Notes: generated by a model from the sequence alone, not told the origin. A DNA stretch of 64,000 nt from Desulfatiglandales bacterium (GCA_963662465.1 OY759599.1:3264001-3328000); one strand, 5' to 3'; positions 33,081-62,325 are shown, counted from the first letter of the stretch. Made by a program: numbers and translations.

Positions 33081-33167
33081 CGCGAACCAAACGCTCCACC
33101 GGACCCCTGGACGCGGAGGGGTAATCTCGAAGTCCTGTGCGGGGGGCCGGTGAGCTTGTCGTTCGCG
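33081..33167 (+). repeat. attC site
   Basis: CGCGAAC ... CACCGGACCCC / GGGGCCGGTG ... GTTCGC; same subtype as 50598-50683. Confidence 0.9.
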
Positions 33168-35393
33168 TGCGACGTGATGTCGCGTAAGTAGCTGTTTTGT
33201 ATATCAATATAAACCATATAACAAAACCCTGTTTTCTGCAACAGGTATTCTACCGGGACATGCGTCCGGAGTAATCCGGGGGTGTGAAGCTCTCGGGACA
33301 ATGAAGCCCGCGGAATTTTCCGGGAGAGGAAACCGTGAGGGGACCTCAACTCTGCAAGCATCATGCGGTAAGGGAGCTAGAATTGAGCAGTACGGTTAAC
33401 ACATGTGAATCGCTGCAGCGTCGTCACGAGAACAAGCCTAAGATGCTGAAAGGCTTGGACCAAAAAAGGTACGTGGCCAGGAACGGAGGCTGCGAACTCC
33501 TCCGTCGCGGATGTTGTGCCACCGGCGTAAAGGCGGAACCTAACCTGCTCTGGTACTTACGCGGAACATGGTAAGCCCGTAATCCTCCCCACGGGGAAAG
33601 CGAACCGCAAGGTGAGCCCATGGGGTTGCGGGTAAAGGATGTCAGAAAAAGCGAATGCCTCGTTGTAATGATGGGGATACGGATTGAAGGTGTAACTACC
33701 TACATGATCCGGCTCGAAAGAGAGCAGACTTCTGACCGGTGTTCCATTGCGAGATAATCTGTCGAATCTTTAAACAGGGGAAAGCAAATGACGGTGGCCG
33801 TTTTGGCGACTGGTGCACCTTTGGACGGAACAAACTGGTGGAAATCCATAAACTGGAAAACCGTCGGCGAGCACGTTAGAAGACTGCAGGTGCGTATCGC
33901 AAAGGCTGTGAAGGAAAAGCGATGGGGAAAAGTCAAGGTGATACAGTGGCTTTTGACTCATTCGTTTTATGCCAAGTTGTTGGCTATCAAGCGCGTTACT
34001 TCCAACCGGGGTAAACGCACACCGGGAGTGGATAAAGTCATATGGTCCACCCACATTGACAAAATGCAGGCGGTAAACGACCTGCGCCGAAGAGCCTACC
34101 GACCCAAACCGCTGCGCCGAATTTACATACCCAAGAAAAACGGCAAGAAACGCCCATTGGGCATTCCCACAATGAAGGACAGAGCCATGCAGGCGTTGTA
34201 CAAATTGGCGCTTGATCCGGTGGCGGAAACCACCGCCGATCCGAACTCTTACGGGTTCAGACCCTATCGGGGATGTGCGGATGCCATCGGTCAGTGTTTT
34301 ATTTCTCTGGCCAAGCGCCACTCACCCGTATGGATTCTGGAGGGAGATATAAAGGCCTGTTTTGATGAAATCAGCCATCAATGGATGCTCGAAAATATCC
34401 CTATGGATAAACGGACGCTTCAGAAATGGCTGAAATCCGGTTATGTGGAAGGAGGCAAGCTCTATCCAACTTACAGAGGAACCCCGCAAGGCGGGATTAT
34501 CTCTCCAACATTGGCTAATATGGTCCTGGATGGTCTGGAAGCGGCAGCCAAAAGTACCGCCCCGATAAGAATCCAGGGCAATATACGGTCCAAGATAAAC
34601 GTAATCCGTTACGCTGATGATTTCATCATCACCGGGAATTCCAGAGAGATGCTAAATGAGATCAAGCTGGAAATTGAAGCATTTATGGAGCGAAGAGGAC
34701 TTTCGCTTTCAGCGGAAAAGACGTTGATCACAAGGATAGAAGAAGGATTTGATTTTCTCGGACAGAATCCACGCAAATACCAGGGGAAGCTCTTGATAAA
34801 GCCCTCTCGCAAAAACGTGAAAGCCTTTTTAGGCAATATCCGGCAAACAATCCGAAAGCATGCGGCATCAAGAGCCGACATTCTGATTAAAGTACTCAAT
34901 CCCAAAATCAGGGGGTGGGCCAATTACCACAGGCATGTGGTTTCCGGTAGAACTTTCGGGCTTGTAGATCACCGTATCTACAGCTATATTTGGCAATGGA
35001 TGAGGAGGAAACATTCGGGCAAGAGTAAGAGTTGGCTGGTGGATAAATACTGGTCAAAAGGATCTCGCCCGTGGTCCTTTTCAGCGGTGATCAAGGACGG
35101 CTATGCGAAATCCGCCAGAATTGAACTTGAGAAAGCTTACGACGTCAAGATAAAACGCCATGTCAAAATTCGAGGGGATGCGAACCCCTTCGATCCGAAA
35201 TATGAACAATATTTCAGGAAACGATATGCCCAACGCAGTCAGCAGAAGGCAGACAGGCGTAAAGAGCATAAAACGTCACAACCGGGTAGCCCCGAAAGGG
35301 CTTGCCTTTGGAATGCTTGAGCCGTGTGCGTTTAACGGCGCACGCACGGTTCTTAGAGGGCTGGGGGATGGTGACATCCCCTGGCTACTCGAC
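33167..35393 (+). mobile_element. group II intron 1 (IIB-like, RT-encoding)
   Basis: 5' GTGCG; 34-nt domain V with AGC triad (35319-35352); domain VI ending CTACTCGAC. Removal gives GTTCGCC, exact complement of the cassette's own GGCGAAC (38094). Confidence 0.92.
33788..35320 (+). CDS. ltrA: group II intron reverse transcriptase/maturase, no C-terminal HNH endonuclease
   Basis: N-terminal RLQVRIAKA...TPGVD, RPLGIPT..DRAMQ, GTPQGGIISP.LAN, RYADDF, maturase LNPKIRGWANY; ends shortly after ANPFDP with no CxxC/HNH. Confidence 0.95.
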   Translation: MTVAVLATGAPLDGTNWWKSINWKTVGEHVRRLQVRIAKAVKEKRWGKVKVIQWLLTHSFYAKLLAIKRVTSNRGKRTPGVDKVIWSTHIDKMQAVNDLRRRAYRPKPLRRIYIPKKNGKKRPLGIPTMKDRAMQALYKLALDPVAETTADPNSYGFRPYRGCADAIGQCFISLAKRHSPVWILEGDIKACFDEISHQWMLENIPMDKRTLQKWLKSGYVEGGKLYPTYRGTPQGGIISPTLANMVLDGLEAAAKSTAPIRIQGNIRSKINVIRYADDFIITGNSREMLNEIKLEIEAFMERRGLSLSAEKTLITRIEEGFDFLGQNPRKYQGKLLIKPSRKNVKAFLGNIRQTIRKHAASRADILIKVLNPKIRGWANYHRHVVSGRTFGLVDHRIYSYIWQWMRRKHSGKSKSWLVDKYWSKGSRPWSFSAVIKDGYAKSARIELEKAYDVKIKRHVKIRGDANPFDPKYEQYFRKRYAQRSQQKADRRKEHKTSQPGSPERACLWNA

Positions 35394-35455
35394 CGGAAAG
35401 CGCAGTCAGCGGCAGGTCAAGAGTCGGAAAGCGCAGTCAGCGGCAGGTCAAGAGT
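35394..35455 (+). repeat. 31-bp perfect tandem duplication at the intron 3' junction
   Basis: CGGAAAGCGCAGTCAGCGGCAGGTCAAGAGT at 35394-35424 and 35425-35455. Confidence 0.95.
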
Positions 35456-35876
35456 TCCTTTTGTTGGCTACATTGTCTTTTTGGGAGCCAAAACGAAGCA
35501 GAATGGGAGGCGCTTTTTTGGAGTACGTAAGGCTTATCTCAGGTTTTGGGTATCCCAAAATCTTTGAGGCATCCAAAAGGTACCATATTGTATCCTGAAA
35601 GAATCCGTGAGGATTGACGAAATGGATCATTTGGCTGGTTTTCACTGCCTTGTCGTTTACGGTTTCACTTGGCAAGATGGAATGAGTTGGTGTACTTGAG
35701 CGCCATAATGCACGTTGTTCTTTCCTGCATCAGGTTATCTGGCGAATTAATCGCCTCCTTTTATTCTGTGCTTATGTTTGACAGTCATAGCCAAAACATA
35801 AGAAAACCAAATACCACAAAGTTGGCCGGTTGCCATTGACGTCACTGCGAACATTTATCAAGAGAAAGGAGCAATT

Positions 35877-37910: not shown

Positions 37911-38093
37911 AGAAAGGGCTTGGAGGTTGGAAGCGCCTGAAATTTGTTGGCATTTTGTGAAAGGTGAAGGCAAAATGCCTACCAAACGCCGAAATCTAAG
38001 CGATATATGGCCCAAAAGAGCCCGTAACCCTTTACCATGAAAATACAATTCATTGATATAGCGAAGACCCTTGCCAGAAATGAAGACGGAGTT

Positions 38094-38179
38094 GGCGAAC
38101 CAAACGCTCCACCAGACGCCTGAAAGTCCTGCAGTCCCAGCGGGGGCCGGTGGAGGCGCTGGTGAGCTCGTCGTTCGCT
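38094..38179 (+). repeat. attC site (86-bp family)
   Basis: GGCGAAC ... GTTCGCT with conserved internal arms. Confidence 0.9.
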
Positions 38180-38408
38180 GCCAATATTCATGGCTGGAAG
38201 GAGGCATGTTTTGAAACGCATACTTGTTTTGTCGGTTCAAGTTGTATGCTTTATCTTCTTACTCGTTTCCACAGCATATGCCCAATCTCAAGCCCCGAGT
38301 ACTAGAAATATTGGTGGTCCCCTTTTTGGAGCGGCAATCGCGGCGTTAATCTGTTATCGAGTACGAAAACGAGCAATAGGTGATTGGCTTTTATATTATT
38401 ATATCCAG

Positions 38409-41654: not shown

Positions 41655-41712
41655 CAACGGCACTGAGAACAACGCGCAAAAAAACGCACGCCTCGCATGC
41701 CGGGCGTTAGCT
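41649..41712 (+). repeat. attC site (short, 64 bp)
   Basis: AGCTAAC ... CGGCACTGAG / CTCGCATGCCG ... GTTAGCT. Confidence 0.8.
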
Positions 41713-41743
41713 ACCATGAATTACTTATCGTAGAAGGGAAGCA

Positions 41744-42073: not shown

Positions 42074-42103
42074 TTCTCTCATGCTTTTATTATTTTAGGG
42101 ATC

Positions 42104-42292: not shown

Positions 42293-42348
42293 CACGATTT
42301 TTGGCGTGAAATGATAAGCCCGGCACTACGAAATCAACGCATTGGAAC

Positions 42349-42434
42349 CGCGAACCAAGCGCTGCACCAGACGCCTGATAATTGGGCGGTCCCAGCGGGG
42401 GCCGGAGGAGGCGCTGGTGAGCTTAACGTTCGAG
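42349..42434 (+). repeat. attC site (86-bp family)
   Basis: CGCGAAC ... GTTCGAG. Confidence 0.9.
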
Positions 42435-43399
42435 TTGCGACACGAAGTCGCTTTAAATATATGTTTTCACAGAAGAATCGTGGAAACCCGGTGTTCCTCC
42501 ACCGGCATCCTAGGGAGGCATGCTGCCGTTGCGCTGATGACGGGGTGTGAAGCCCTCCCGACAATGTACCGAGGACCTTTGAAGTTGGAAAGTCGGGACA
42601 GAAAGCGTGAGTGGACTGTTCCTCTGGAAGCCTCATCCGGATTAGGGCTGGGATTGACTGATATGGTCAGTATATTCAAACACCTGCAGTATCGTAAACA
42701 GCAACAAGCCAAAGAGGCCGATAGGCTTGGACCAAACGGTGTGCGGCCAGGTCGGGAGTCTCGAACGTACGCCCGGCGCGGATGTTGTGCCGCCGGTATA
42801 GGGGGTGGACCTAAGTCAGTTAACAGTATTTATTGCGGAACGTGGTAAGCTCGTAACATCGCCATAAAGTTTTGTGGCAAGCCAACCGTGAGGCAGGCCG
42901 CTGGTGTTGCGGGTGCAAAACGCCTTACCAAGCCAATGCCCTCCTGAATGGGTGGGATACGGAGTTATCTCCGGCCCGAAAGGGAGCTGAATTTTGGCGG
43001 GTGCTCATGCGTGAGATAATTTGAAGAACCTTCTGATGGGAGAATAGCAAATGAGGGGTCTTCGTGACTGGTACACTTCCACAACAAGCTCCAAACTGGC
43101 AACTCATTAACTGGGATGTCGTCAAGAGTAACGTGAAAAGGCTTCAAATGCGTATTGCGCAGGCGGTTAAGGCGCAAAGATGGAAAAAGTGAAGGCTCTA
43201 CAGTGGCTTCTCTCCCATTCCTTCTCTGCGAAGTTATTGGCAAAAAAGGCCAAGAATGTTCGCCTTGCTTAGCCAATAACAACCGCCGGACTCTTCTGAT
43301 GAGAAAGGGTCTTACTGAGGGCTTGAGCCGTATGCTGGGAAACTCGCGTCTACGGTTCTGAGGAGGGAAGGAGGCCGGATGGCCTCCGACCTATCCGGT
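42435..43399 (+). mobile_element. group II intron 2, ORF-less (internally deleted RT)
   Basis: 5' TTGCG; frameshifted RT N-terminal remnant NWQLINWDVVKSNVKRLQMRIAQAVK/KVKALQWLLSHSF (~43051-43250); domain V 43325-43358; domain VI ending CTATCCGGT. Confidence 0.88.
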
Positions 43400-45332: not shown

Positions 45333-45376
45333 TTAATGCCATCACTGCAACAACTATTTGATATGCCAAATCAAAA

Positions 45377-45754: not shown

Positions 45755-45840
45755 GGCGAACCAAACGCTGCACCAGACGCCTGATACTTCGGCGGTTTCG
45801 GCGGGGGCCGGAGGAGGCGCTGGTGACCTTAACGTTGTGC
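45755..45840 (+). repeat. attC site (86-bp family)
   Basis: GGCGAAC ... GTTGTGC. Confidence 0.9.
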
Positions 45841-50597: not shown

Positions 50598-50683
50598 GCA
50601 CAACCAAACGCTGCACCGGACCCCTAGACGCAACGGGGTAATGGGGACGTTGGGTGCAGGGGCCGGTGAGCTTGTCGTTGGAT
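50598..50683 (+). repeat. attC site
   Basis: GCACAAC (exact complement of GTTGTGC at 45834) ... GTTGGA. Confidence 0.9.
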
Positions 50684-51935
50684 TGCGACACGATGTCGCA
50701 TAGTTTGAGTGTATTCATGTAGTTACATGTAGTACCCGGTATGTTCCTACCGGACCCTACGCAGGCATGCTGCCGTTGCGCTGATGACGGGGTGTGAAGC
50801 CCTGCGGACAACGTACCGAATCGGGTTCAAATGGCGACAGGAGAACCCCTCCGGGAATCCTCCCGGTTAAGGGCTAGGGTCGGATGATATGGTGAAGGTA
50901 TCTGAATGTCTTTAAGCGTCGATTACAAGCGAAGGGCCTACGAGGATTAATAGGTCTTATGCCGCTGCCCAGTGTCAGCGGATGTGGTCAGGTTGCAGGT
51001 CTGCTAACGGCCTGCACGGAACTGTTGTACCACCGGCGTAGAGGGCGCACCTAAGTCATCCACAGGATCAACTATGTGGAACGTGGAAACCCGTTCCCGT
51101 CGCCCCCTTTGGGGGCAGGCTAACGTAAGGCATGCTGTTGGCGGGCCGGAGTAGGAGGCTGAAAAAAGCGAATGCCGGGCTGTAATGGTCCGGATACCGG
51201 GTGAAACATTCCCGGCTCCGTAAGGAGGCAGACGTTCAGCGCGGTGCCCGATTACGTGAACACCGGAGGAATCAGATGAAAGCGGGGAAAGCAGCCAGTG
51301 AAACGGGCGAATGACGGCCCTTGAGGCTGGTGCGCCCCGTATGCCTTTGGCTACTCTGACAACCGGCCTGTAACGTGAAGTGGATGCAAATCCGCGGGAA
51401 TCCCCACCAGGGAAACCTTTTCGGGGGCTTGAGCCACGTGAGGTGAAAGCCTCATGCGTGGTTCTGAGGGTAATAGCGGCATAATACACACCTCCGTACG
51501 TTATTGAAAATTAAAGACTTGTTGTTTTGAGTTTCTTGAAAGCGGGCTCTTTGGAAACCCGGAATGAGCTGCCTTTTTTATCACTTCAGATTCAAGGTCC
51601 TTTTTTGAAATGATCCATGGAGCACCGGAACATACTCGCTTGGCGGGTAGAATCTCATGTTGTATAAGTCTCCAAACTTTGGTGCTGCCAATACCCAGCC
51701 TTTCGCTTGCTTCAGCTACCGTATATTCTTCTCGTCGCTGCCTCTCTCCTTCATGATATACAGGGATATTATGCCTATTTCGAAATGAACGCAACCTTAC
51801 CGGATTCCAGGTATATCCCTTTGTAGTCTTTGTACCCACACGGTTGAGAAAGGCCACGATGTGTTTATCAGGCATAATTCTAGCCAAATCGGCTAAAGCG
51901 TCATTATACGGTTGGATCCATCAGCAGCTTTAGCC

Positions 51936-53798
51936 TCACTGCAATGTGCGAGGAGCACGGCTACTGGCTGCTTTCTTGATGCGATGATTCATCTGATCCG
52001 TCCTAACCAAACGTCTATCTGCTGTCGATAGAGATGCTGTAGAAAGCTGAAGCTCTTTTTTAAGATTCACAATTTCTTGGGAAGGCAGCCATTTATTCTT
52101 CCTATTCCGGTTTTCCATATCTAATTGCGCGAATGCAAGAGGAAGCTGATCGATCGATCCACAAACTATATTGACGTAATCGGCGTGTTCCAGATTATAT
52201 GCCAGAGCCGCTTCTGCCGGTAGATGTTCCAGATCCTGACCAAGATTTTTCCGTCCACTGCGCCGTCGTTCTCCATGCTTCATTGTTCCAAAGAAGTTTT
52301 CGAGCAGTTCGTTGGTTCGACTCATAAGCCGTATGCCGCCGCCTGTTCTTTCCGGCAAACATATGCTGTGCCCCCAAAGACTATCACCATGCGTGTCAAT
52401 ATGTTTGATTATAATATCAATAGCTTCCCGAATATCTTTTCCCGGGCCTCGTTTTGGCCGGCGATCTTTAAGGGCAGTCGTCCATGTTTCAAACTGATAC
52501 CGCATCTCGTTAAGGTCTTCTATTGATTCCTTATCCGGGAGTTCTTTTGCCAACCGCAATTGATTTCGCAGCTCATCGAATAAAGCAGCACGGCGGTGCA
52601 ACTGTTTGACAGTTTGACGAAAGGGCACTTCACAAGAAACCTTCGAAGCGATCCTCCTAAGCCGACGAATCATGCGCACAACATGCTTATCATTCGGAGG
52701 AATGCGAAGAAATGCATCTATTGCTCGCAGAGCAACCATACACCTGTTGAAAAAACTCAAATACGGTCTGTCAAAAGGAAAATCCAGGCCTGAAAGATCT
52801 GCCTTATAGTCGATTATCCACTGTGCTATGTTTCGTACAACGGCAAGGCCATCTCGTCCCGGTGGGAGACGATAGTCATCCCTCTCTTGCCAATCCAGAA
52901 CCGCCTGCCGTGTTTCATTGATCTCAAAGCCTATCTCTCGCCCGATCTCACGGACTAAGTTATTGATTTTAGGTCGTACTTTTGTACGCCGGAAATGGTC
53001 CCGCAAAGCGGAATGGTCAGGTTTTATAAGGTCTTTACCAATGTCGGCAAGAAAGTGTTGATGGCAAGCTAACACGGGTATATCCAATTGCATCTCAGAT
53101 ACGAGTTCGTCGATGGCCGGCGATACCGCGCGTCCCAAGTCGCGCATGGCTCCGCAAGGCGGGCCGAATCGACTGACCGTATCCCGCATGCAGGGTAACA
53201 AAAGATCGGCTCGTTCAGTTGAAATTTTCCAGGCGCCAAGCACCCATTTTCTCCAACCAGCCATCACAACAAATAGGGTCCCTCGACCGGCTTCTCCAGT
53301 GGCATCCACTTGCATCGGCCAACCCCCATCCGCCTCCAGGACCCCTTTCAATTGCTCAGCCCGCACGTGATGAAGTCTGAGCAAGTATTCCAAAAAGTAT
53401 CGTGTCAGATTGCTAACCTCACCGCAAGACAATTTGATGCCGTGCCTTTCCTTTAATTCTGCTTTTATTTCCTCTCTCTGTTTATAGCCGAGCAGCCTAT
53501 TGAGACCCACATAAACCATTACGTCATAACCGACAATGCCGTTTGGCATAATGGTCCGAACGACCGATTCTGCTCTCTTGGTAAACAATGTCCCATCATC
53601 ATTACGGCACCGCTCCGAACATACATGTACCGTTTCCCTAACATTAAACGTACCATGCTCGATGGTCCGTCCTTCATGCACAAACGTTTTTTGTACACGC
53701 ATCGGTCCATTGCAGAGTTCACATACCCCAACCTCATCCTTAGCAGATACAACGATATCCGCTAACCCGACCACTTGTTTAAAACAACTATCATTCAA
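51936..53798 (-). CDS. putative DDE transposase (IS OrfB)
   Basis: CELC, MQVDATGE, AMRDLG, CHQHF, RTNELLENFF motifs inside the TIRs. Confidence 0.8.
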   Translation of the reverse strand: MNDSCFKQVVGLADIVVSAKDEVGVCELCNGPMRVQKTFVHEGRTIEHGTFNVRETVHVCSERCRNDDGTLFTKRAESVVRTIMPNGIVGYDVMVYVGLNRLLGYKQREEIKAELKERHGIKLSCGEVSNLTRYFLEYLLRLHHVRAEQLKGVLEADGGWPMQVDATGEAGRGTLFVVMAGWRKWVLGAWKISTERADLLLPCMRDTVSRFGPPCGAMRDLGRAVSPAIDELVSEMQLDIPVLACHQHFLADIGKDLIKPDHSALRDHFRRTKVRPKINNLVREIGREIGFEINETRQAVLDWQERDDYRLPPGRDGLAVVRNIAQWIIDYKADLSGLDFPFDRPYLSFFNRCMVALRAIDAFLRIPPNDKHVVRMIRRLRRIASKVSCEVPFRQTVKQLHRRAALFDELRNQLRLAKELPDKESIEDLNEMRYQFETWTTALKDRRPKRGPGKDIREAIDIIIKHIDTHGDSLWGHSICLPERTGGGIRLMSRTNELLENFFGTMKHGERRRSGRKNLGQDLEHLPAEAALAYNLEHADYVNIVCGSIDQLPLAFAQLDMENRNRKNKWLPSQEIVNLKKELQLSTASLSTADRRLVRTDQMNHRIKKAASSRAPRTLQ

Positions 53799-53833
53799 AC
53801 GATGCGCCTGATGCCTTAGGTAGACCAGCGTTT

Positions 53834-54526
53834 TCAGCGGAATCTTGACGTTTTTTTTTCTGCTTGAATGCCATGTTCTGAAAAAATCCGGTTCACCTGA
53901 TCGACAGTGACGGCCAATCCCCGAACGGCGAGGCGGGTTGCTATTTCAGATTGAGATACAATAACTTGGCCCGCCTTCAGCGCTTCCACAAGAACAGCAA
54001 TGGTCGTTTCCATTGGGACCGGCCCGACAATTTGAACCCCTTCTTGTATATGTACGCGACGCGCCGCTATTTGCACTTTTCCTTTATCCGGATCTCCATT
54101 GGTATATAAGGAAAGCCCTTCGGATCGGTGCCGACTTATCTGCTGGGATTGAACCAGCCCATGAAGCGTGTTGTGCAACGTGTTGGGAATCCGAATCTTC
54201 AACAAATGCAACAGCTCTTTCGGTGTCATTCCGGCATTCGATAAATGCACAATTTCCACCACAGTCGCTTTTAGCGTGCCGGCCTTTGAAAAGCCGATTC
54301 CCCGATAAAACCACAAACCCCAAGAATCAAACGAAGGAATATCCTCAAGGGTGTAGTAACGACCGGCATCCGTAAAGCTTGTCAAGTATCCGATAAGTTT
54401 AAGCCTCCGGAATACACTCATCCGAGAACTTGTTTTCAGTACATGGAAGAGCTGATTGAGATCTGCGATGTATTTCTTCCTAAACCATTTATGTAAAGCC
54501 TTTTTGGAGTCTTCAGGAGATAACAT
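53834..54526 (-). CDS. IS OrfA, probable DNA-binding part; A9 slippery site at its end
   Basis: Inside the TIRs; ends GCA GAA AAA AAA ACG and overlaps the open -1 frame of OrfB. Confidence 0.75.
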   Translation of the reverse strand: MLSPEDSKKALHKWFRKKYIADLNQLFHVLKTSSRMSVFRRLKLIGYLTSFTDAGRYYTLEDIPSFDSWGLWFYRGIGFSKAGTLKATVVEIVHLSNAGMTPKELLHLLKIRIPNTLHNTLHGLVQSQQISRHRSEGLSLYTNGDPDKGKVQIAARRVHIQEGVQIVGPVPMETTIAVLVEALKAGQVIVSQSEIATRLAVRGLAVTVDQVNRIFSEHGIQAEKKTSRFR

Positions 54527-56610
54527 GTGACCTCTGATACATTTATTTGTTTTCTGTGGCTATTTCCAAATAAATGTATCAAAATGCCAATTGCTTGTCA
54601 ATCCTCCAATTCAATAAAATCAAGTGGTTACTGAAATATAAGGTTTGTTTCCCAGCGTTTGTGTGGTACAATTATGAAAAAAATATCAAAGATAATACCG
54701 TTAATTCAATGGCTTATTGAATCCAACCGTATCCTGACGCTGTAGCAAATCGGATATTATCTTTTTTGTATCAACATCGGTTTTCAATGGGTAACTGGAA
54801 GACTTATTCTTCAGTACCTCCAATTCCGTATGCTCACCCCCTTCCCAGTGAATGATTAATTTGATCTTTTGCTCTTCCAAATAAACAACGATCTCTTTGA
54901 TAACCGTCCGGATTATACGCTTCTTTAAATCCAAAGAGCAACACGGATTATTCCATACACGAGGTAAATCTTGTGACAGATCTCTGATCTCGGTCTCTTC
55001 CTCAGGGGAAAGCGAAGGGGTGTTCGACCCCATAGCGGTAATCTCATTCTCCAACCTTGCTACCTTAACAAGAGCGTCATTCCAATCCTTCTCCAATGTA
55101 GATGCTACCAAACGATTATCAGGGTCCACTGCATTGTATTGACGTTTTGCCCGTAAAGCTTCATAACGCGCTTGTTCCAACTCCAGTTCCCGTTGCCGTT
55201 TCACTGAATCCGATTCATGGTTGATTTTCTTTATCGCCTCTAAAGAAGCTTCTAATCCTATCGGTGATAATACTTTCAAAAGAAAATCCGTAACAGCCCG
55301 GTCAACACGGAATCCACCAAATGATATACACGCCTTTCCTGTCTCGTTACCTCGTTTGCGGCTACACTCATAACGTTTATGAGTTCCATTACGGCCTTGG
55401 TATCGTACAATTAACTTTCTGCCGCAATGACCGCATCTTAACAAACCTCCAAGCAATGCCTTTCCTCCGCGAACAGCTCCTCTCACCACCGGCCTTTTCT
55501 TATTTGTATTTTGAGTTAGTATCTCCATGTTATACTGGTACTCTTCCCATGTGATGTAACCTTCATGGTGATCCAATATTAAAACGTCCCAATCCTTTTG
55601 TTCCTTACGAATACCCTTCCTCAGTCGCTTGCGCCCATTTTCAAAAGTTACCTCTGTTTTAGTCCGGCCATAGACGTAGGCGCCGGCGTAAATTGGGTTG
55701 TTCACTATATGCGACAAGGTATGAGCAGACGGTAGTTTCCACTCTATCCTACGTTCCCCTTTACCGCTGGAAACAACAGCAATCTCAATCTGTTCATCTA
55801 AAAACCAATGATACACCCGACGAAGAGTACCATATTCCTTGAATTTCGTGAATACCAAATCAATGACTTCTTGAATTCGTTTGTCAGGATTCTTTTTCAG
55901 CTTATTATCCCTAGTCTTTATATAGGCTGCCGGTACAGTAAGATATAATTCTCCCCGCTTCGCTTTTTGTTGTATTGCCGCCTGAGAACGCTCCTTTAAT
56001 AGGCTCAATTCCATTGCACTCATTTCTCCCTTTAAGCCCAGGAGCAAACGATCATTTGACACGTTTAGGTCATAAACAGCTCCTTGATCTACAAGAACCG
56101 TTTTTTTAAGTGCACAGATCTCAAGCAACGTATGCCACTCTCGACCGTTGCGGGCCAACCTCGATGATTCAATCGAGAAAATACCCCCTATTCTTCCTTC
56201 ACACACAGATGAAAGAAGATTCTGGAATCCTTTTCTGTCAACGCATCCCGATGCAGTTATTCCCAAATCACTATCTATCATCCATATGTTTTTCTCGTTC
56301 CATCCTAATTCTTTTGCCCTTTCTACCAAGCCATATTGTAAAAGTTGGCTTTCACGATGCTGTAGAACTTGGCCCGGTGTTGACTGACGGATATATATAC
56401 ATGCTTCCCGACTAATATGTTCAGCATTGATTTTATTGCTCATGCTCATTTCCACCTTTCTTTTCTCGAAATGTCAACCGAAAATTGACCTCTTGCGACA
56501 ACCGAATTTTGCCCCCACATGAGTAATTGTAACCTGCGACGCGGTCATAGAAGGCTCCGGTGGCTCCTGCCGAAATATCCATTAAAAGAGCGACCATAAC
56601 CGCACCTTAG

Positions 56611-56817
56611 TCAGCTTCCGACCAGATAATCATCTGGTAAGTCGAGAAAACCCTTTTTCGTCGCTAATTCGAGTTCAATCAAATACCCTATCTCGCCTTT
56701 CATTTTGATCTGTGAAACCATCCACTTCGGTAACCGAATCGTGACGGGGATACGCCTCAGATGTTCAGGACTCCTTTTTCGACCAGCGCCTTTTCGACTC
56801 CCACCTCTCATTTTCAT
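56611..56817 (-). CDS. small putative DNA-binding protein (copy 1)
   Basis: RGGSRKGAGRK then VTIRLP; identical to 61366-61572. Confidence 0.65.
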   Translation of the reverse strand: MKMRGGSRKGAGRKRSPEHLRRIPVTIRLPKWMVSQIKMKGEIGYLIELELATKKGFLDLPDDYLVGS

Positions 56818-57618
56818 CGCTCCTTTTCACCTTCAAATTCGTCCAATATTTTTGAATACCGCGTACGTTTTTCAATTAAACACCTATTTCTATCGGAAAA
56901 TAAGGTATTTATGATTTATAGTTACGATTTTTCTGAGTCGGATTAAGCTGCTTGCTTCAACAACTCCAGTCTCTTGACTGCTTCCAATATCAGACCGCGA
57001 TTTTACGTTAGTGAAACTACTTCTCTTTTCTATTTCTGTTACCCTCAGAATTTTGCCAGAAACCTGACAGAAGCTCTGCAAGGAAATCAATCAATCTATT
57101 TCGTGTTTCTATTGGAATTTCGATCGGTGATGGTAAATAATCCCAAAGCCGAAGTTGATGATATTTTTGTTTCGTCATCTTTCCTCCTTGTTTTCGAATT
57201 GACTTCATCAGGAGGAAACGGTATTTTTCTATTCACTATTAAGCAATATAAATTCTTAAGCGCCCTGATTTCGATAGCGGGTTTTGAGCCGAGGGATATC
57301 TTTTCATACTTTGGATTGGTCATCCACGCAGGTATCAATTCATGGCGACCATCAGGTTTCTTTGTTACAAAACAAGTTTCTCCACGATGGTTTCTGGTAC
57401 CTACCACATAAATTTCTTCACCGGTTCTTGGGTGAAATGGGTAATATACCCGAGTTATAAACTGGTTTTGATGGGCATTATATAGTGGTTCTGAGGGGGC
57501 TCGGGGATGGCAACATCCCCCGGCTACCCGGCCCCCCCCTCAAAATCCAACGATTTACCTTGACAAACAGTCTTACTGTTGTACAATTGTCCAAAAAGCA
57601 TTTAGATGAAGGTAAAAT

Positions 57619-58012: not shown

Positions 58013-58231
58013 ATGCAAGTTTATACATATTCAGAAGCTCGTCAAAAGCTTGCTACGGTTCTTGAGCAGGCTGAAAATACAGGTAAAGTGATAATTCGAA
58101 GGAAAGATGGGAGAACGTTCTCCTTGGTTCCGGAAAAAGCTGCTACATCACCACTAAATGTTCCAACAATAAAAGCAAATATAACAACACAAGAAATAGT
58201 TGACATCATTCGCGAAGGAAGGGAAAGGTAG
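58013..58231 (+). CDS. Phd/YefM-family antitoxin
   Basis: YTYSEARQKLATVLEQA...VIIRRKDG; stop codon overlaps the attC. Confidence 0.88.
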   Translation: MQVYTYSEARQKLATVLEQAENTGKVIIRRKDGRTFSLVPEKAATSPLNVPTIKANITTQEIVDIIREGRER

Positions 58232-58313
58232 AACCAAACGCTGCACCAGACGCCTGATACTTGGGCGGTTCCAGCGGGGGCCGGCAGAGGCGCTGGTGAG
58301 CTAGACGTTAGCT
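58228..58313 (+). repeat. attC site (86-bp family)
   Basis: GTAGAAC ... GTTAGC. Confidence 0.9.
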
Positions 58314-59115
58314 TGCGACACGATGTCGCATAGTTTGAGTGTATTCATGTAGTTACATGTAGCACCCGGTATGTTCCTACCGGACCCTACGCAGGCATGC
58401 TGCCGTTGCGCTGATGACGGGGTGTGAAGCCCTGCGGACAACGTACCGAATCGGGTTCAAATGGCGACAGGAGAACCCCTCCGGGAATCCTCCCCGGTTA
58501 AGGGCTAGGGTCGGATGATATGGTGAAGGTATCTGAATGTCTTTAAGCGTCGATTACAAGCGAAGAGCCTACGAGGATTAATAGGTCTTATGCCGCTGCC
58601 CAGTGTCAGCGGATGTGGTCAGGTTGCAGGTCTGCTAACGGCCTGCACGGAACTGTTGTACCACCGGCGTAGAGGGCGCACCTAAGTCATCCACAGGATC
58701 AACTATGTGGAACGTGGAAACCCGGTCCCGTCGCCCCTTTTGGGGCAGGCTAACCGCAAGGCATGCTGTTGGCGGGCCGGAGTAGGAGGCTGAAAAAAGC
58801 GAATGCCGGGCTGTAATGGTCCGGATACCGGGTGAAACATTCCCGGCTCCGTAAGGAGGCAGACGTTCAGCGCGGTGCCCGATCACGTGAACACCGGAGG
58901 AATCAGATGAAAGCGGGGAAAGCAAATGACGGCCCTTGAGGCTGGTGCGCCCCGTGCGCCTTTGGCTATTCTGACAGCTGGCCTGTAACGTGAAGTGGAT
59001 GCAAATCTGCGGGAATCCCCACCAGGGAAACCTTTTCGGGGGCTTGAGCCACGTGAGGTGAAAGTCTCATGCGTGGTTCTGAGGGTAATAGCGGCATAAT
59101 ACACACCTCCGTACG

Positions 59116-61209
59116 TTATTGAAAATTAAAGACTTGTTGTTTTGAGTTTCTTGAAAGCGGGCTCTTTGGAAGCCCGGAATGAGCTGCCTTTTTTATCACT
59201 TCAGATTCAAGGTCCTTTTTTGAAATGATCCATGGAGCACCGGAACATACTCGCTTGGCGGGTAGAATCTCATGTTGTATAAGTCTCCAAACTTTGGTGC
59301 TGCCAATACCCAGCCTTTCGCTTGCTTCAGCTACCGTATATTCTTCTCGTCGCTGCCTCTCTCCTTCATGATATACAGGGATATTATGCCTATTTCGAAA
59401 TGAACGCAACCTTACCGGATTCCAGGTATATCCCTTTGTAGTCTTTGTACCCACACGGTTGAGAAAGGCCACGATGTGTTTATCAGGCATAATTCTAGCC
59501 AAATCGGATATTATCTTTTTTGTATCAACATCGGTTTTCAATGGGTAACTGGAAGACTTATTCTTCAATACCTCCAATTCCGTATGCTCACCCCCTTCCC
59601 AGTGAATGATTAATTTGATCTTTTGATCTTCCAAATAAACAACGATCTCTTTGATAACCGTCCGGATTATACGCTTCTTTAAATCCAAAGAGCAAAACGG
59701 ATCATTCCATACACGAGGTAAATCTTTTGATAGATCTCTGATCTCAGTCTCCTCCTCAGGGGAAAGCGAAGGGGTGTTCGATCCCATGGCGTCAACCTCA
59801 TTCTCCAATCTTGCTACCTTAACAAGAGCGTCATTCCAATCCTTCTCCAATGTAGATGCTACCAAACGATTATCAGGGTCTACTGCATTGTATTGACGTT
59901 TTGCCCGTAAAGCTTCATAACGCGCTTGTTCCAACTCCAGTTCCCGTTGCCGTTTCACTGAATCCGATTCATGGTTGATTTTCTTTATCGCCTCTAAAGA
60001 AGCTTCTAATCCTATCGGTGATAATACTTTCAAAAGAAAATCCGTAACAGCCCGGTCAACACGAAATCCACCAAATGATATACACGCCTTTCCTGTCTCG
60101 GTACCTCGTTTGCGGCTACACTCATAACGTTTATGAGTTCCATTACGGCCTTGGTATCGTACAATTAACTTTCTGCCGCAATGACCGCATCTTAACAAAC
60201 CTCCAAGCAATGCCTTTCCTCCGCGAACAGATCCTCTCACCACCGGCCTTTTCTTATTTGTATTTTGAGTTAGTATCTCCATGTTATACTGGTACTCTTC
60301 CCATGTGATGTAACCTTCATGGTGATCCAATATTAAAACGTCCCAATCCTTTTGTTCCTTACGAATACCCTTCCTCAGTCGCTTGCGCCCATTTTCAAAA
60401 GTTACCTCTGTTTTAGTCCGGCCATAGGCGTAGGCACCGGCGTAAATTGGGTTGTTCACTATATGCGAGAAGGTATGAGCAGACGGTAGTTTCCACTCTA
60501 TCCTACGTTCCCCTTTACCGCTGGAAACAACAGCAATCTCAATCTGTTTATCTAAAAACCAATGATACACCCGACGAAGGGTACCATATTCCTTGAATTT
60601 CGTGAATACCAAATCAATGACTTCTTGAATTCGTTTGTCAGGATTCTTTTTCAGCTTATTATCCCTGGTCTTTATATAGGCTGCCGGTACAGTAAGATAT
60701 AATTCTCCCCGCTTCGCTTTTTGTTGTATTGCCGCCTGAGAACGTTCCTTTAATAGGCTCAATTCCATTGCACTCATTTCTCCCTTTAAGCCCAGGAGCA
60801 AACGATCATTTGACACGTTTAGGTCATAAACAGCTCCTTGGTCTACAAGAACCGTTTTTTTAAGTGCACAGATCTCAAGCAACGTATGCCACTCTCGACC
60901 GTTGCGGGCCAACCTCGATGATTCAATCGAGAAAATACCCCCTATTCTTCCTTCACACACAGATGAAAGAAGATTCTGGAATCCTTTTCTGTCAACGCAT
61001 CCCGATGCAGTTATTCCCAAATCACTATCTATCATCCATATGTTTTTCTCGTTCCATCCTAATTCTTTTGCCCTTTCTACCAAGCCATATTGTAAAAGTT
61101 GGCTTTCACGATGCTGTAGAACTTGGCCCGGTGTTGACTGACGGATATATATACATGCTTCCCGACTAATATGTTCAGCATTGATTTTATTGCTCATGCT
61201 CATTTCCAC
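59116..61209 (-). CDS. large serine recombinase with zinc ribbon and C-terminal HTH (Y4bA-like)
   Basis: YIRQS catalytic motif, SRLARN, NPIYAG recombinase domain, LLRCGHCG...YEC, C-terminal YTVAEASERLGI. Confidence 0.95.
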   Translation of the reverse strand: MEMSMSNKINAEHISREACIYIRQSTPGQVLQHRESQLLQYGLVERAKELGWNEKNIWMIDSDLGITASGCVDRKGFQNLLSSVCEGRIGGIFSIESSRLARNGREWHTLLEICALKKTVLVDQGAVYDLNVSNDRLLLGLKGEMSAMELSLLKERSQAAIQQKAKRGELYLTVPAAYIKTRDNKLKKNPDKRIQEVIDLVFTKFKEYGTLRRVYHWFLDKQIEIAVVSSGKGERRIEWKLPSAHTFSHIVNNPIYAGAYAYGRTKTEVTFENGRKRLRKGIRKEQKDWDVLILDHHEGYITWEEYQYNMEILTQNTNKKRPVVRGSVRGGKALLGGLLRCGHCGRKLIVRYQGRNGTHKRYECSRKRGTETGKACISFGGFRVDRAVTDFLLKVLSPIGLEASLEAIKKINHESDSVKRQRELELEQARYEALRAKRQYNAVDPDNRLVASTLEKDWNDALVKVARLENEVDAMGSNTPSLSPEEETEIRDLSKDLPRVWNDPFCSLDLKKRIIRTVIKEIVVYLEDQKIKLIIHWEGGEHTELEVLKNKSSSYPLKTDVDTKKIISDLARIMPDKHIVAFLNRVGTKTTKGYTWNPVRLRSFRNRHNIPVYHEGERQRREEYTVAEASERLGIGSTKVWRLIQHEILPAKRVCSGAPWIISKKDLESEVIKKAAHSGLPKSPLSRNSKQQVFNFQ

Positions 61210-61365
61210 CTTTCTTTTCTCGAAATGTCAACCGAAAATTGACCTCTTGCGACAACCGAATTTTGACCCCCATATGAGTAATTGTAAGCTGCGACGAAGT
61301 CATAGAAGGCTCCGGTGGCTCCTGCCGAAATATCCATTAAAAGAGCGACCATAACCGCACCTTAG

Positions 61366-61572
61366 TCAGCTTCCGACCAGATAATCATCTGGTAAGTCGA
61401 GAAAACCCTTTTTCGTCGCTAATTCGAGTTCAATCAAATACCCTATCTCGCCTTTCATTTTGATCTGTGAAACCATCCACTTCGGTAACCGAATCGTGAC
61501 GGGGATACGCCTCAGATGTTCAGGACTCCTTTTTCGACCAGCGCCTTTTCGACTCCCACCTCTCATTTTCAT
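61366..61572 (-). CDS. small putative DNA-binding protein (copy 2)
   Basis: AAGGAG RBS; RGGSRKGAGRK, VTIRLP. Confidence 0.65.
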   Translation of the reverse strand: MKMRGGSRKGAGRKRSPEHLRRIPVTIRLPKWMVSQIKMKGEIGYLIELELATKKGFLDLPDDYLVGS

Positions 61573-61771
61573 CGCTCCTTTTCACCTTCAAATTCGTCCA
61601 ATATTTTTGAATACCGTGTACGTTTTTCAGTTAAACACCTATTTCTATCGGAAAATAAGCTATTTATGATTTATCGTTACGATTTTTCTGAGTCGGATTA
61701 AGCTGCTTGCTTCAACAACTCCAGTCTCTTGACTGCTTCCAATATCAGACCGCGATTTTACGTTAGTGAAA

Positions 61772-61963
61772 CTACTTCTCTTTTCTATTTCTGTTACCCT
61801 CAGAATTTTGCCAGAAACCTGACAGAAGCTCTGCAAGGAAATCAATCAATCTATTTCGTGTTTCTATTGGAATTTCGATCGGTGATGGTAAATAATCCCA
61901 AAGCCGAAGTTGATGATATTTTTGTTTCGTCATCTTTCCTCCTTGTTTTCGAATTGACTTCAT
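61772..61963 (-). CDS. small hypothetical protein of the recombinase element (copy 1 at 57017-57208)
   Basis: GGAGG before MTKQKY; identical in both copies. Confidence 0.55.
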   Translation of the reverse strand: MKSIRKQGGKMTKQKYHQLRLWDYLPSPIEIPIETRNRLIDFLAELLSGFWQNSEGNRNRKEK

Positions 61964-62252
61964 CAGGAGGAAACGGTATTTTTCTATTCACTATTAAGCA
62001 ATATAAATTCTTAAGCGCCCTGATTTCGATAGCGGGTTTTGAGCCGAGGGATATCTTTTCATACTTTGGATTGGTCATCCACGCAGGTATCAATTCATGG
62101 CGACCATCAGGTTTCTTTGTTACAAAACAAGTTTCTCCACGATGCTTTCTGGTACCTACCACATAAATTTCTTCACCGGTTCTTGGGTGAAATGGGTAAT
62201 ATACCCGAGTTATAAACTGGTTTTGATGGGCATTATATAGTGGTTCTGAGGG
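61851..62252 (-). CDS. start-less body of a DUF5372-like gene; 5' end supplied by 59086-59110 on circularisation (copy 1 at 57096-57497)
   Basis: YPFHPRTG...IPAWMT motif; frame open across the 13-bp core. Confidence 0.75.
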   Translation of the reverse strand, partial: PSEPLYNAHQNQFITRVYYPFHPRTGEEIYVVGTRKHRGETCFVTKKPDGRHELIPAWMTNPKYEKISLGSKPAIEIRALKNLYCLIVNRKIPFPPDEVNSKTRRKDDETKISSTSALGLFTITDRNSNRNTK

Positions 62253-62325
62253 GGCTCGGGGATGGCAACATCCCCCGGCTACCCGGCGTATTCTTTTAAG
62301 TGTGTCGAGAGATGGAGGAAAAACA

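What the first reader, a model, noticed from the sequence alone, without database searches (positions are those of the whole stretch)
33161..62287. Non-IIC group II introns inserted on the top strand right after the attC crossover
Seen: four introns start 6-7 nt after the G of the attC core, in cassette orientation: GTTCGC|GTGCG (33167), GTTCGAG|TTGCG (42435), GTTGGA|TTGCG (50683), GTTAGC|TTGCG (58313). They have 34-nt AGC-triad domain V and the RT resembles the chloroplast-like lineage without HNH. Known: described attC-targeting introns are class IIC (e.g. S.ma.I2) and insert into the bottom strand, opposite to the cassettes. Inference: a different attC-targeting strategy that leaves the attC essentially intact and makes the intron the 5' passenger of the next cassette, so IntI can move it. 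I am not aware of a description of this, but could not search.
Basis: partly seen in the sequence, partly recalled or inferred. Interest (0 to 1): 0.88.

Follow-up and report, generated by a model that had tools for sequence, protein, structure and literature searches.

The report
Sense-strand group II introns homing into attC
Four self-splicing mobile introns of a chloroplast-like lineage sit, in the same direction as the genes, just after the recombination sites of a chromosomal integron, and they belong to a barely described intron clade that finds this spot by base pairing.

Summary
Four group II introns (Rfam) start 6-7 nt after the G of the attC R' box GTT, on the cassette strand of an integron whose IntI gene lies at 23690-24706. 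They are not class C. The reverse transcriptase (RT) is closest to T.el4h, a IIB1/CL1 intron. It has no endonuclease domain, and domain V is 34 nt with an AGC triad.

The EBS1 loop (NNNAAC) pairs with GTTNNN.

The whole genome holds 28 copies: 21 follow attC or attC-like sites, 4 follow attI-like array heads and 3 stand in tandem behind another intron.

In an RT tree, introns with a GTT flank concentrate on one side of a well-supported split.

- I3 and I4 end at 57532 and 62287, because a 3.2-kb serine-recombinase element lies between domains V and VI.
- The arrangement is already in print once: UHB.I2, Sonbol and Siam 2021. Earlier notes of this scan also report it on other DNA.

Movement of these introns by IntI is plausible but not shown.

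The parts
23690..24706 (-). Integron integrase gene intI (338 aa)
   Evidence: TIGR02249 scores 444.1 bits against a cut-off of 265. Pfam finds Phage_int_SAM_4 and Phage_integrase. The gene is divergent from the attC array, as in canonical integrons.
24822..24852 (+). Possible attI core GTTGGA (24822-24827), abutted by the end of an IS91-family element (CAGACCCGCTGGACAGCGGGGGAAC, starting at 24828)
   Evidence: Sequence read. The same element end follows GTTGGA at 16 places in the genome that share it; the two further places follow an intron 3' end. The Y2 transposase ORF is at 24866-26065. Calling this an attI is an inference.
31307..31391 (+). attC site without an intron (R' GTTCGC)
   Evidence: Hit of the nhmmer attC profile.
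33081..33166 (+). attC site ahead of intron I1 (R'' GCGAAC, R' GTTCGC)
33167..35393 (+). Intron I1, full length (GUGCG...AC). EBS1 GCGAAC at 33492-33497, domain V at 35319-35352.
   Evidence: RF02012 scores 124 bits and RF00029 56 bits. EBS1 loop located. It forms 6 of 6 pairs with GTTCGC.
33788..35320 (+). Intron-encoded RT/maturase, 510 aa, no endonuclease domain
   Evidence: Pfam finds RVT_N, RVT_1 and GIIM. TIGR04416 scores 365.8 bits. The best solved relative is 6ME0_C (T.el4h), at 570.7 bits over residues 7-485.
38093..38178 (+). attC site without an intron
42349..42434 (+). attC site ahead of intron I2 (R' GTTCGAG)
42435..43399 (+). Intron I2, an ORF-deleted derivative (UUGCG...GU). EBS1 CUCGAAC at 42760-42766, RT remnant at about 43058-43248, domain V at 43325-43358.
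   Evidence: RF02012 scores 93 bits and RF00029 52.6 bits. tblastn finds an RT remnant at E 1.7e-12. EBS1 forms 7 of 7 pairs with GTTCGAG.
45755..45837 (+). attC site without an intron
50598..50682 (+). attC site ahead of intron I3 (R' GTTGGA)
50683..57532 (+). Intron I3, ORF-less and interrupted. Domains I-V at 50683-51464, EBS1 GCUAAC at 51003-51008, inserted DNA at 51471-57486, domain VI at 57495-57532.
   Evidence: An uninterrupted 825-nt copy elsewhere in the genome aligns to both ends.
58229..58312 (+). attC site ahead of intron I4 (R' GTTAGC)
58313..62287 (+). Intron I4, ORF-less and interrupted. EBS1 GCUAAC at 58634-58639, domain V at 59046-59079, domain VI at 62250-62287.
   Evidence: EBS1 forms 6 of 6 pairs with GTTAGC.
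59086..62241 (-). 3.2-kb element inserted between domain V and domain VI of I4, flanked by the direct repeat GGTTCTGAGGG (59075-59085 and 62242-62252). It carries a large serine recombinase gene at 59116-61209.
   Evidence: Pfam finds Resolvase, Recombinase, Zn_ribbon_recom and HTH_17. Repeat coordinates. Six copies in the genome, all at the same intron position.
51471..57486 (-). The same serine-recombinase element in I3. Its recombinase gene is split (54701-56455 and 51501-51887) by a nested insertion at about 51893-54742.

Best explanation
The four elements belong to a clade of chloroplast-like (CL1-type, IIB1-like) group II introns that home into integron recombination sites on the cassette (top) strand.

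Mechanism proposed:
1. The EBS1 loop of the intron RNA has the form 5'-NNNAAC. It pairs with the R' box 5'-GTTNNN of attC, and with the GTT core of attI-like array heads.
2. The RNA reverse-splices 5-7 nt after the G of GTT. The whole attC and the G|TT crossover point stay intact upstream.
3. The intron becomes the first part of the downstream cassette.
4. Nearly all recognition lies in the 5' exon, so the same junction can be hit again. This gives head-to-tail intron arrays.
5. The RT has no endonuclease domain, so priming must come from host DNA synthesis.
6. ORF-less copies (I2, I3, I4) would depend on RT supplied in trans by full-length copies such as I1.
7. In the sense orientation, the intron can in principle be spliced out of a cassette transcript.

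Shown here: the anatomy, the RT class, the EBS1-IBS1 pairing and its covariation, the enrichment at attC sites, the concentration in one clade, and one filled versus empty site.

Inferred: retrohoming as the process, supply of RT in trans, splicing in vivo, and later transport by IntI.
For: Integron context:
- IntI scores above the curated cut-off.
- The genome holds 55 attC sites of one family, lying in arrays next to IntI genes: 5 matches to the IntI family score above the cut-off, the fifth covering only part of the profile. Arrays and integrase genes are divergent.

Class:
- The RT scores 570.7 bits to T.el4h, 149 bits to LtrA and 121 or less to class C RTs.
- T.el4h is stated to be a IIB1 intron with a CL1 RT (PMC8643678, passage).
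- Domain V is 34 nt with AGC.

Targeting within the genome:
- Of the 28 copies, 18 follow a profile-defined attC. One follows another attC-like palindrome, one a half attC and one another sequence ending GTTAAC.
- Four follow attI-like array heads, and 3 follow another intron's 3' end.
- 18 of the 55 attC sites are occupied.

EBS1:
- The loop position is fixed by covariation. Relatives not at attC carry other EBS1 sequences that match their own exons.
- In 19 attC-adjacent copies, 44 of 57 variable IBS1 positions pair. The null expectation is 27.0 +/- 3.7, and 0 of 20000 random draws reached 44.

Other genomes:
- GTT-flanked, attC-like 5' exons occur in Desulfobacterales MAGs, in genomes G162 and G163, and in 12 metagenome contigs.
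- All 13 introns outside this genome that start TTGCG follow GTTNN(N) (12) or another intron (1).

Tree:
- A 20-row split has SH-aLRT 98. It holds 13 rows with a GTT flank, 3 without, 3 unknown and 1 tandem.
- The other 48 rows hold 4 with a GTT flank, 33 without and 11 unknown.
- FastTree on all 99 rows gives the same picture.

Precise insertion:
- One cassette begins GTTCTC|GCGCCGAGG in two empty copies. A filled copy reads GTTCTC|intron|GCGCCGAGG.
Against: - No experiment or read evidence of splicing or mobility was obtained. The sequencing runs were available only as contigs and showed no exon-exon joint.
- EBS2 is unresolved. ACAAGC is complementary to GCTTGT of this attC family, but it is also conserved in a relative that is not at attC (L001) and may be structural.
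- Some copies pair poorly at the junction. Examples are 3 of 6 pairs at genome 6734663, 4 of 6 at 6379417, and an out-of-register match at 5886487.
- The four copies at attI-like sites have no complement to the EBS2 candidate.
- 26 of 28 copies have their sense strand on the leading-strand template. The endonuclease-less intron RmInt1 prefers the lagging-strand template (abstract of PMC8914252 in the listing).
- Copies within one genome are not independent, so the permutation P value is overstated.
- Three rows inside the clade have no GTT flank, and four rows outside it do.
- I did not build a phylogeny with class-labelled reference RTs.
Confidence: 0.75

Rival explanations
1. Hitch-hiking only. 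One or a few chance insertions placed an intron at the head of a cassette. The many copies at attC and attI then arose by IntI-mediated cassette excision and integration, or by homologous recombination between intron copies. On this view there is no RNA-guided attC targeting.
For: - The intron lies downstream of the G|TT crossover, so it belongs to the next cassette.
- 5 of the 9 attI-like heads that keep the GGTT core (of 10 in the genome) carry an intron or a 5' intron stub 2-4 nt after GTT, with no complement to the EBS2 candidate. attI is where IntI inserts new cassettes.
- The cassette starting TTCTC-GCGCCGAGG occurs behind different upstream partners, so cassettes do move or duplicate here.
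Against: - Different intron subfamilies carry different EBS1 variants (GCGAAC, CUCGAAC, GCUAAC, GUCAAC, CUCAAC). These match the variable bases of their own R' boxes.
- Tandem arrays at one junction need repeated insertion.
- The trait is shared by clade members in other genomes and metagenomes with unrelated attC families, and EBS1 always ends in AAC.
- The two copies that begin with A share TTGGC but do not share downstream cassettes.
Confidence: 0.1
2. Hairpin-guided homing, as in class C introns. The folded top strand of attC is the main recognition feature, helped by a short IBS1. EBS1-R' pairing would be secondary.
For: - Insertion is always a few nt after the 3' foot of an imperfect hairpin. 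This is the geometry that the background of Sonbol and Siam gives for class C introns (passages).
- EBS2-IBS2 pairing could not be established.
- Sonbol and Siam speculate about a role for the top-strand hairpin.
Against: - IBS1 (GTTNNN) lies inside the 3' arm of the hairpin, so the stem must open for pairing.
- Copies at attI-like sites have no evident hairpin upstream.
- Tandem copies follow an intron end, not a hairpin.
Confidence: 0.12
3. The 85-nt repeats are not attC sites but another kind of intergenic palindrome, such as a REP-like element or a terminator. The association with an integron would then be coincidental.
For: - Cassettes here are unusually large (2-7 kb), and some genes lie on the minus strand.
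- My simple attC score separates these sites only weakly from random GTT sites.
Against: - The repeats have AAC...GTT ends, an unpaired central stretch and one extra base on the 5' arm.
- They form same-strand arrays that start beside IntI genes, in the canonical divergent layout, at four loci.
- They are headed by a conserved attI-like sequence ending GGTT.
Confidence: 0.03

Closest known systems
UHB.I2 (Sonbol and Siam 2021, Mob DNA 12:8, PMC7923331; outline and passages read; supplementary figures not read)
   Same: UHB.I2 is a group IIB1 intron with an endonuclease-less CL1 protein. It is inserted in the same orientation as the cassettes, immediately downstream of an attC. Its boundaries are non-canonical (5'-UUGCG..GU-3'), as in I2 here.
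   Different: - UHB.I2 is a single copy on one soda-lake metagenome contig.
- Its authors found no conservation of flanking exons among homologues, and they did not propose EBS1-R' pairing or a clade-wide habit.
- Here there are 28 copies in one genome, with full-length and ORF-less subfamilies, tandem arrays, copies at attI-like sites, and a clade seen in other genomes and metagenomes.
- I could not test sequence relatedness to UHB.I2, because its sequence was not at hand.
Group IIC-attC introns (S.ma.I2 and relatives; described in PMC7923331 background, PMC3001079 abstract and PMC8876359 passages)
   Same: They are mobile group II introns specialised on integron attC sites. They insert next to a core site and occur in arrays with or without a nearby integrase.
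   Different: - They are class C introns.
- They insert into the bottom strand, antisense to the cassettes, at TTGT/T in R''.
- They have a short IBS1 of 3-4 bp plus hairpin recognition.
- The introns here are CL1-like, lie on the top strand in sense orientation, insert after R', and have a 6-7 nt EBS1.
Thermosynechococcus elongatus TeI4/TeI3 introns (Mohr et al. 2010, PMC2882425, passages read; T.el4h structure 6ME0)
   Same: The T.el4h protein is the closest solved RT relative (570.7 bits). That genome also holds a proliferated family of ORF-containing and ORF-deleted IIB1/CL1 introns. The ORF-less copies are mobilised in trans by 'driver' proteins.
   Different: - The TeI4h protein has an endonuclease domain.
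- The targets are not integron sites.
- Insertion into other introns occurs as twintrons inside the ORF, not as head-to-tail arrays at one junction.
RmInt1 of Sinorhizobium meliloti (abstracts in the listing)
   Same: It has an endonuclease-less RT and is thought to rely on the replication fork for priming.
   Different: - RmInt1 is reported to prefer the lagging-strand template.
- Here 26 of 28 copies have their sense strand on the leading-strand template.
- I recall RmInt1 as a class D intron; no call confirmed this.

Membership tests
Group IIB1 introns with a CL1 reverse transcriptase | RT groups with chloroplast-like class 1 proteins | tested here: inconclusive
   The closest solved relative by far is T.el4h (570.7 bits, against 149 for LtrA and 121 or less for class C RTs). 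T.el4h is stated to be IIB1/CL1 (PMC8643678). I had no class-labelled reference set, so no class-level tree was built.
Group IIB1 introns with a CL1 reverse transcriptase | 34-nt domain V with an AGC catalytic triad | tested here: met
   All four domain V sequences are 34 nt and begin GAGC. RF00029 matches all four.
Group IIB1 introns with a CL1 reverse transcriptase | An EBS1 loop of about 6 nt pairs with the last 6 nt of the 5' exon | tested here: met
   I1 pairs 6 of 6, I2 7 of 7, I3 5 of 6 and I4 6 of 6. The loop position is confirmed by covariation in relatives.
Group IIB1 introns with a CL1 reverse transcriptase | EBS2-IBS2 pairing upstream of IBS1 | tested here: inconclusive
   ACAAGC is complementary to GCTTGT, but it is also conserved in a relative that is not at attC. 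The alternative ACGAG gives 5 bp including a wobble pair.
Group IIB1 introns with a CL1 reverse transcriptase | Consensus ends 5'-GUGYG and AY-3' | tested here: not met
   Only I1 meets it (GUGCG..AC). I2 has UUGCG..GU, and I3 and I4 have UUGCG..GC. The deviation covaries: among 58 related introns whose two ends could be read, G1 goes with a penultimate A in 44, a pyrimidine at nt 1 with a penultimate G in 12, and an A at nt 1 with a penultimate A in 2.
Group IIC-attC introns | Class C RT and a small class C ribozyme | tested here: not met
   Class C RTs score 121 bits or less, against 570.7 for the CL1 protein. The ORF-less ribozyme is 825 nt.
Group IIC-attC introns | Insertion into the attC bottom strand, antisense to the cassettes, at TTGT/T in R'' | tested here: not met
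   All copies lie on the same strand as the array that leads away from intI, and they insert after R'. The defining feature is taken from passages of PMC7923331.
Sense-strand IIB1 introns at attC (UHB.I2 type) | IIB1/CL1 intron without endonuclease, in the cassette orientation, directly after an attC | tested here: met
   The description of UHB.I2 comes.
Sense-strand IIB1 introns at attC (UHB.I2 type) | Sequence relatedness to UHB.I2 itself | not testable with these tools
Integron (host structure) | IntI-type integrase beside a same-strand array of attC sites | tested here: met
   TIGR02249 scores 444 bits. The window holds 7 full attC copies and 1 partial copy downstream on the opposite strand.

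The most novel reading that the evidence does not exclude
A distinct CL1-derived clade of group II introns, often with a pyrimidine at nt 1 paired to a G at the penultimate position, is a dedicated integron hitch-hiker.

- It homes by EBS1 = NNNAAC into the top strand at the R' core shared by attC and attI.
- It is spliced out of cassette transcripts and so does not silence downstream cassettes.
- Because it lands just past the G|TT crossover, IntI then carries it between arrays and replicons as the head of a cassette.
- In this genome the clade is itself parasitised by a serine-recombinase element that uses the intron's domain V/VI junction as its attachment site.
Probability: 0.35. Interest if true: 0.75.

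Novelty: new member of a known kind. Interest (0 to 1): 0.6.

Why it matters
Integron research treats attC-targeting introns as a class C, bottom-strand, antisense phenomenon. A second, unrelated intron lineage uses the opposite strand and RNA-DNA pairing to the conserved GTT core. This points to convergent exploitation of integron sites.

It also gives a natural case of an intron that should be spliced out of cassette transcripts rather than blocking them.

The EBS1 = NNNAAC rule is simple and testable. It could be used to predict or engineer introns that insert at any attC or attI.

Many identical introns inside arrays provide substrates for rearrangements that do not depend on IntI.

The serine-recombinase element at the domain V/VI junction adds a further layer, a parasite of the intron.

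The value is reduced because one instance is already published, and because earlier notes of this scan report the same kind on other DNA.

Tried and rejected
- Sequencing runs. All 24 runs were held as contigs only. Laying four of them on 29000-48900 gave no exon-exon joint across an intron and no clear empty site. An RNA-library contig identical to 34257-34809 shows presence only.
- Simple attC score (AAC...GTT with arm complementarity). It separates poorly: true attC sites score about 10, and the 99th percentile of random GTT sites is 9. I relied instead on the nhmmer profile, the array context and folds inspected by eye.
- Regular-expression extraction of EBS1. It failed or used the wrong register, so I replaced it with an alignment.
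- EBS2 assignment. Left open.
- Test for IntI-type duplication of the two copies that begin with A. They share only intron sequence, so the test says nothing.
- The search for related loci on genome contigs with the single RT gave only 12 loci. The genome search over the order found just 6 other genomes, all at 55% identity or less.
- The first attempt to align RTs failed because L006 has an internal stop. I ran it again without L006.
- The search of earlier findings by place and by sequence returned nothing.
- Class C membership, and the reading that the repeats are not attC sites, were considered and rejected (see the rival explanations and membership tests).
- Literature. 'group II intron' + attC + integron gave 28 papers, of which the 25 listed were seen as a search listing. 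'group IIB' + attC + 'gene cassette' gave 4 papers; two of these were checked and are irrelevant. Only PMC7923331 describes a non-class-C intron at attC. Papers in subscription journals are not covered by these searches.


Full report
**1. What is in the window**

Rfam finds four group II introns on the + strand. Each has a domain I match (RF02012; 124, 93, 78 and 75 bits) and a domain V-VI match (RF00029; 56, 53, 46 and 45 bits).

Aligning the 5' flanks shows a common start, G/TTGCGAC. The starts lie at 33167, 42435, 50683 and 58313 and are preceded by GTTCGC, GTTCGAG, GTTGGA and GTTAGC.

Each intron follows a conserved imperfect palindrome of about 85 nt, running from ...AAC-CAAACGCTGCACC to GGTGAGCTTGTC-GTT. 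The window has 7 full copies and 1 partial copy, all on the + strand. Two motif searches gave 8 and 9 matches, against 1.3 and 0.6 expected from shuffles.

The ORF at 23690-24706 on the minus strand is an integron integrase (TIGR02249, 444 bits against a cut-off of 265). The layout is therefore canonical: intI on one strand and the attC array on the other.

The + strand is the top (cassette) strand. The 5' arm carries one extra base relative to the 3' arm. This fits the polarity of extrahelical bases in attC, which I recall from the literature and did not check in a paper here.

**2. Class of the introns**

I1 (33167-35393) encodes a 510-aa protein with RVT_N, RVT_1 and GIIM domains and no HNH domain. 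It matches TIGR04416 at 365.8 bits.

Among solved structures, the T.el4h protein (6ME0_C) scores 570.7 bits over residues 7-485. LtrA scores 149 bits, and class C RTs score 121, 110, 101 and 99 bits.

A passage of PMC8643678 states that T.el4h (Th.e.I3) is a IIB1 intron encoding a CL1 RT. Passages of PMC2882425 say that the TeI4h protein has an endonuclease domain. The protein here ends before that region.

All four domain V sequences are 34 nt and begin GAGC. An uninterrupted ORF-less copy is 825 nt long.

Class C is therefore excluded. The CL1 assignment rests on similarity, not on a phylogeny with class-labelled references.

**3. Corrected anatomy**

- I2 (42435-43399) keeps a remnant of RT residues 5-68 (E 1.7e-12), so it is an ORF-deletion derivative. 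I3 and I4 keep none.
- I3 and I4 are 98% identical over their first 800 nt. Their real 3' ends are 57532 and 62287.
- A 3.2-kb element lies between domain V and domain VI, flanked by the direct repeat GGTTCTGAGGG. It carries a 697-aa large serine recombinase on the minus strand.
- The uninterrupted 825-nt copy aligns to I4 positions 1-773 and 3928-3975.
- In I3 the recombinase gene is itself split by a nested insertion of about 2.85 kb.

**4. Target recognition**

The alignment of the 28 genomic copies places EBS1 in a hairpin loop about 320 nt into the intron; relatives from other genomes were aligned separately. The sequences are:

- GCGAAC in I1
- CUCGAAC in I2
- GCUAAC in I3 and I4
- GUCAAC or CUCAAC in other copies

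Relatives that are not at attC carry different loops that match their own exons. One example is CUUGUU with the exon AACAAG. This confirms the loop assignment by covariation.

Pairing with the last 6-7 exon nucleotides is 6/6, 7/7, 5/6 and 6/6 for I1 to I4.

For 19 attC-adjacent copies with a readable EBS1, 44 of 57 variable positions (the NNN of GTTNNN) pair. Pairing the same EBS1 sequences with R' boxes drawn from empty attC sites gives 27.0 +/- 3.7, and 0 of 20000 draws reached 44. One copy with an irregular junction was left out. Copies are not independent, so this P value is overstated.

EBS2 is not settled.

**5. The whole genome**

The genome is 8.16 Mb in one contig and holds 28 RF02012 matches. 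A profile built from seven window attC sites finds 55 sites, in arrays next to IntI genes: 5 IntI matches score above the cut-off, the fifth being partial.

| 5' flank of the intron | Copies (of 28) |
|---|---|
| Profile-defined attC | 18 |
| Another attC-like palindrome | 1 |
| A half attC | 1 |
| Another sequence ending GTTAAC | 1 |
| Conserved attI-like sequence ending CACTGGTT | 4 |
| The 3' end of another intron | 3 |

- The attI-like sequence heads attC arrays. It occurs 10 times in the genome, and in 3 places it lies beside an IntI gene or fragment.
- 18 of the 55 attC sites are occupied.
- One locus just outside the window has three introns head to tail behind a single attC. This is expected if recognition lies in the 5' exon.
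- A filled/empty comparison shows a precise insertion. One cassette starts GTTCTC|GCGCCGAGG in two empty copies and GTTGTC|GCGCCGAGG in a third. It reads GTTCTC|intron|GCGCCGAGG in the filled copy.
- Five RT genes are intact, at 97-100% identity, and two are broken.

**6. Other genomes**

- Two Desulfobacterales MAGs with RTs 85% and 82% identical have the intron behind attC-like palindromes of other sequence families.
- Among 209 genomes of the same order, 6 others have an RT match at E <= 1e-100, all at 55% identity or less.
- In G162 and G163, the introns that start TTGCGACACGATGTC all follow ...CGTTNN. They sit behind long AAC...GTT palindromes that recur across loci in both genomes. Their sister introns that start GTGCGACAAGAAGTC do not. 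Both genomes encode IntI.
- The metagenome scan returned 79 loci at 51-66% RT identity.

Across all 99 RT rows, the 5' junction state was: GTT 3-8 nt upstream in 21, no GTT in 54, unknown in 23, and tandem in 1.

All 13 TTGCG-start introns outside this genome follow GTTNN(N) (12) or another intron (1). Most GTT flanks fold into attC-like hairpins when inspected by eye.

FastTree gives a split with support 98 that holds 17 GTT, 3 no-GTT, 5 unknown and 1 tandem rows.

IQ-TREE (quick search, LG+G4) was run on 68 rows, after I dropped 30 near-identical rows and one long branch. It gives a 20-row split with SH-aLRT 98, holding 13 GTT, 3 no-GTT, 3 unknown and 1 tandem. The remaining 48 rows hold 4 GTT, 33 no-GTT and 11 unknown.

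The trees are unrooted. I therefore claim a split, not a rooted clade.

**7. Non-canonical ends**

Among 58 related introns whose two ends could be read:

- 44 have G at nt 1 and A at the penultimate position.
- 12 have a pyrimidine at nt 1 and G at the penultimate position.
- 2 have A at both positions.

I2 (U...GU) and I3/I4 (U...GC) follow this rule. The UUGCG start therefore looks like a covarying variant and not decay.

**8. Replication context**

dnaA lies at 5.77 Mb, at the minimum of the cumulative GC skew. The maximum is at 1.78 Mb.

On this reading, 26 of 28 introns have their sense strand on the leading-strand template, so the attC bottom strands lie on the lagging-strand template.

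Loot et al. 2017 found the opposite orientation in 25 of 30 sedentary chromosomal integrons (passages; their Data Set S1 was not read). RmInt1, another endonuclease-less intron, is reported to prefer the lagging-strand template (abstract in the listing).

How reverse transcription is primed here remains unexplained.

**9. Comparison with what is known**

Class C attC introns insert into the bottom strand, antisense, at TTGT/T in R'' (passages of PMC7923331; PMC8876359).

The arrangement seen here has been published once. UHB.I2 is a IIB1 intron with an endonuclease-less CL1 protein. It lies in the cassette orientation immediately after an attC and has boundaries UUGCG..GU. Its authors saw no exon conservation among homologues, and they speculated about the top-strand hairpin. 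I did not read their supplementary figures, which may show the attC junction.

Two literature searches found no other description.

Earlier notes of this scan report the same kind on other DNA (e1-4224790 and e1-2529727). They also report serine-recombinase elements that target intron RT genes. These are unchecked AI notes, not evidence.

**10. Verdict**

- the EBS1 = NNNAAC rule
- the concentration of the habit on one side of a well-supported RT split
- proliferation to 28 copies, with tandem arrays and occupancy of attI-like sites
- a precise filled/empty site
- the covariation between nt 1 and the penultimate nt
- the serine-recombinase element at the domain V/VI junction

Transport by IntI remains an inference.

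Noticed in passing
window 59086-62241 and 51471-57486; also genome 4984-4987, 5887-5890, 6375-6378 and 6748-6751 kb: A 3.2-kb element carries a large serine recombinase and sits at the same point in six introns, between domain V and domain VI, flanked by GGTTCTGAGGG. The six copies are 98.3-99.8% identical. One lies in an intron with a different (I2-type) 5' body, which argues for independent site-specific integration into the ribozyme. The left end of the element mimics a domain VI, and Rfam aligns to it.
   Followed up: partly
window about 51893-54742: A nested insertion of about 2.85 kb splits the serine recombinase gene of the I3 copy. It holds ORFs of 620 aa and 230 aa with no Pfam or NCBIfam match.
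   Followed up: no
window 24828-26100; genome 3203865, 6746979, 6789544, 3339700, 3354083, and 8 tandem units at 4413960-4425223: IS91-family (Y2 transposase) elements have an end, CAGACCCGCTGGACAGCGGGGGAAC, that abuts GTTGGA of attI or attC cores, or an intron 3' end. Their other end finishes ...AACTAAACGTT. They use the same spot as the introns. One locus has eight 1609-bp units in tandem.
   Followed up: partly
genome 3329531-3334806 (just right of the window) and 441432-440621: Head-to-tail intron arrays stand behind a single attC: three introns in one array and two in the other, with no spacer.
   Followed up: partly
whole genome: 26 of 28 intron copies, and so their attC arrays, are oriented head-on to replication, with the attC bottom strand on the lagging-strand template. 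This is the minority orientation among sedentary integrons in Loot et al. 2017.
   Followed up: partly
window 35394-35455: A 31-nt unit (CGGAAAGCGCAGTCAGCGGCAGGTCAAGAGT) is duplicated in tandem directly after the 3' splice site of I1.
   Followed up: no
related loci L015, L021, L048, L056, L062-L070, L075; window I2-I4: The first and penultimate intron nucleotides covary: G1 with A, or a pyrimidine at nt 1 with G. This suggests a compensated non-canonical pair at the intron ends.
   Followed up: partly
genome 3200391; also 3743294 and 3309755: Short stubs of an intron 5' end (for example GTGCGACGT) follow GTTNNN at an attI-like head and perhaps at some empty attC sites. They may be footprints of intron loss.
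   Followed up: no
genome, about 14 places (for example 455229, 1397602, 6262069): A second, unrelated group II intron family is present. Its domain VI reads AGGGAGGGGAGAGCCAAGAGGCTCTTTCCTACCCCTAT, and it is not at attC sites.
   Followed up: no
window 45980-49845: One large cassette holds FeeM-like N-acyl amino acid synthase genes (one intact, one split), an FAD-linked oxidase and a methyltransferase. Other cassettes encode a caspase-domain protein (31495-32799) and a MORN/TPR protein (30112-31278).
   Followed up: no
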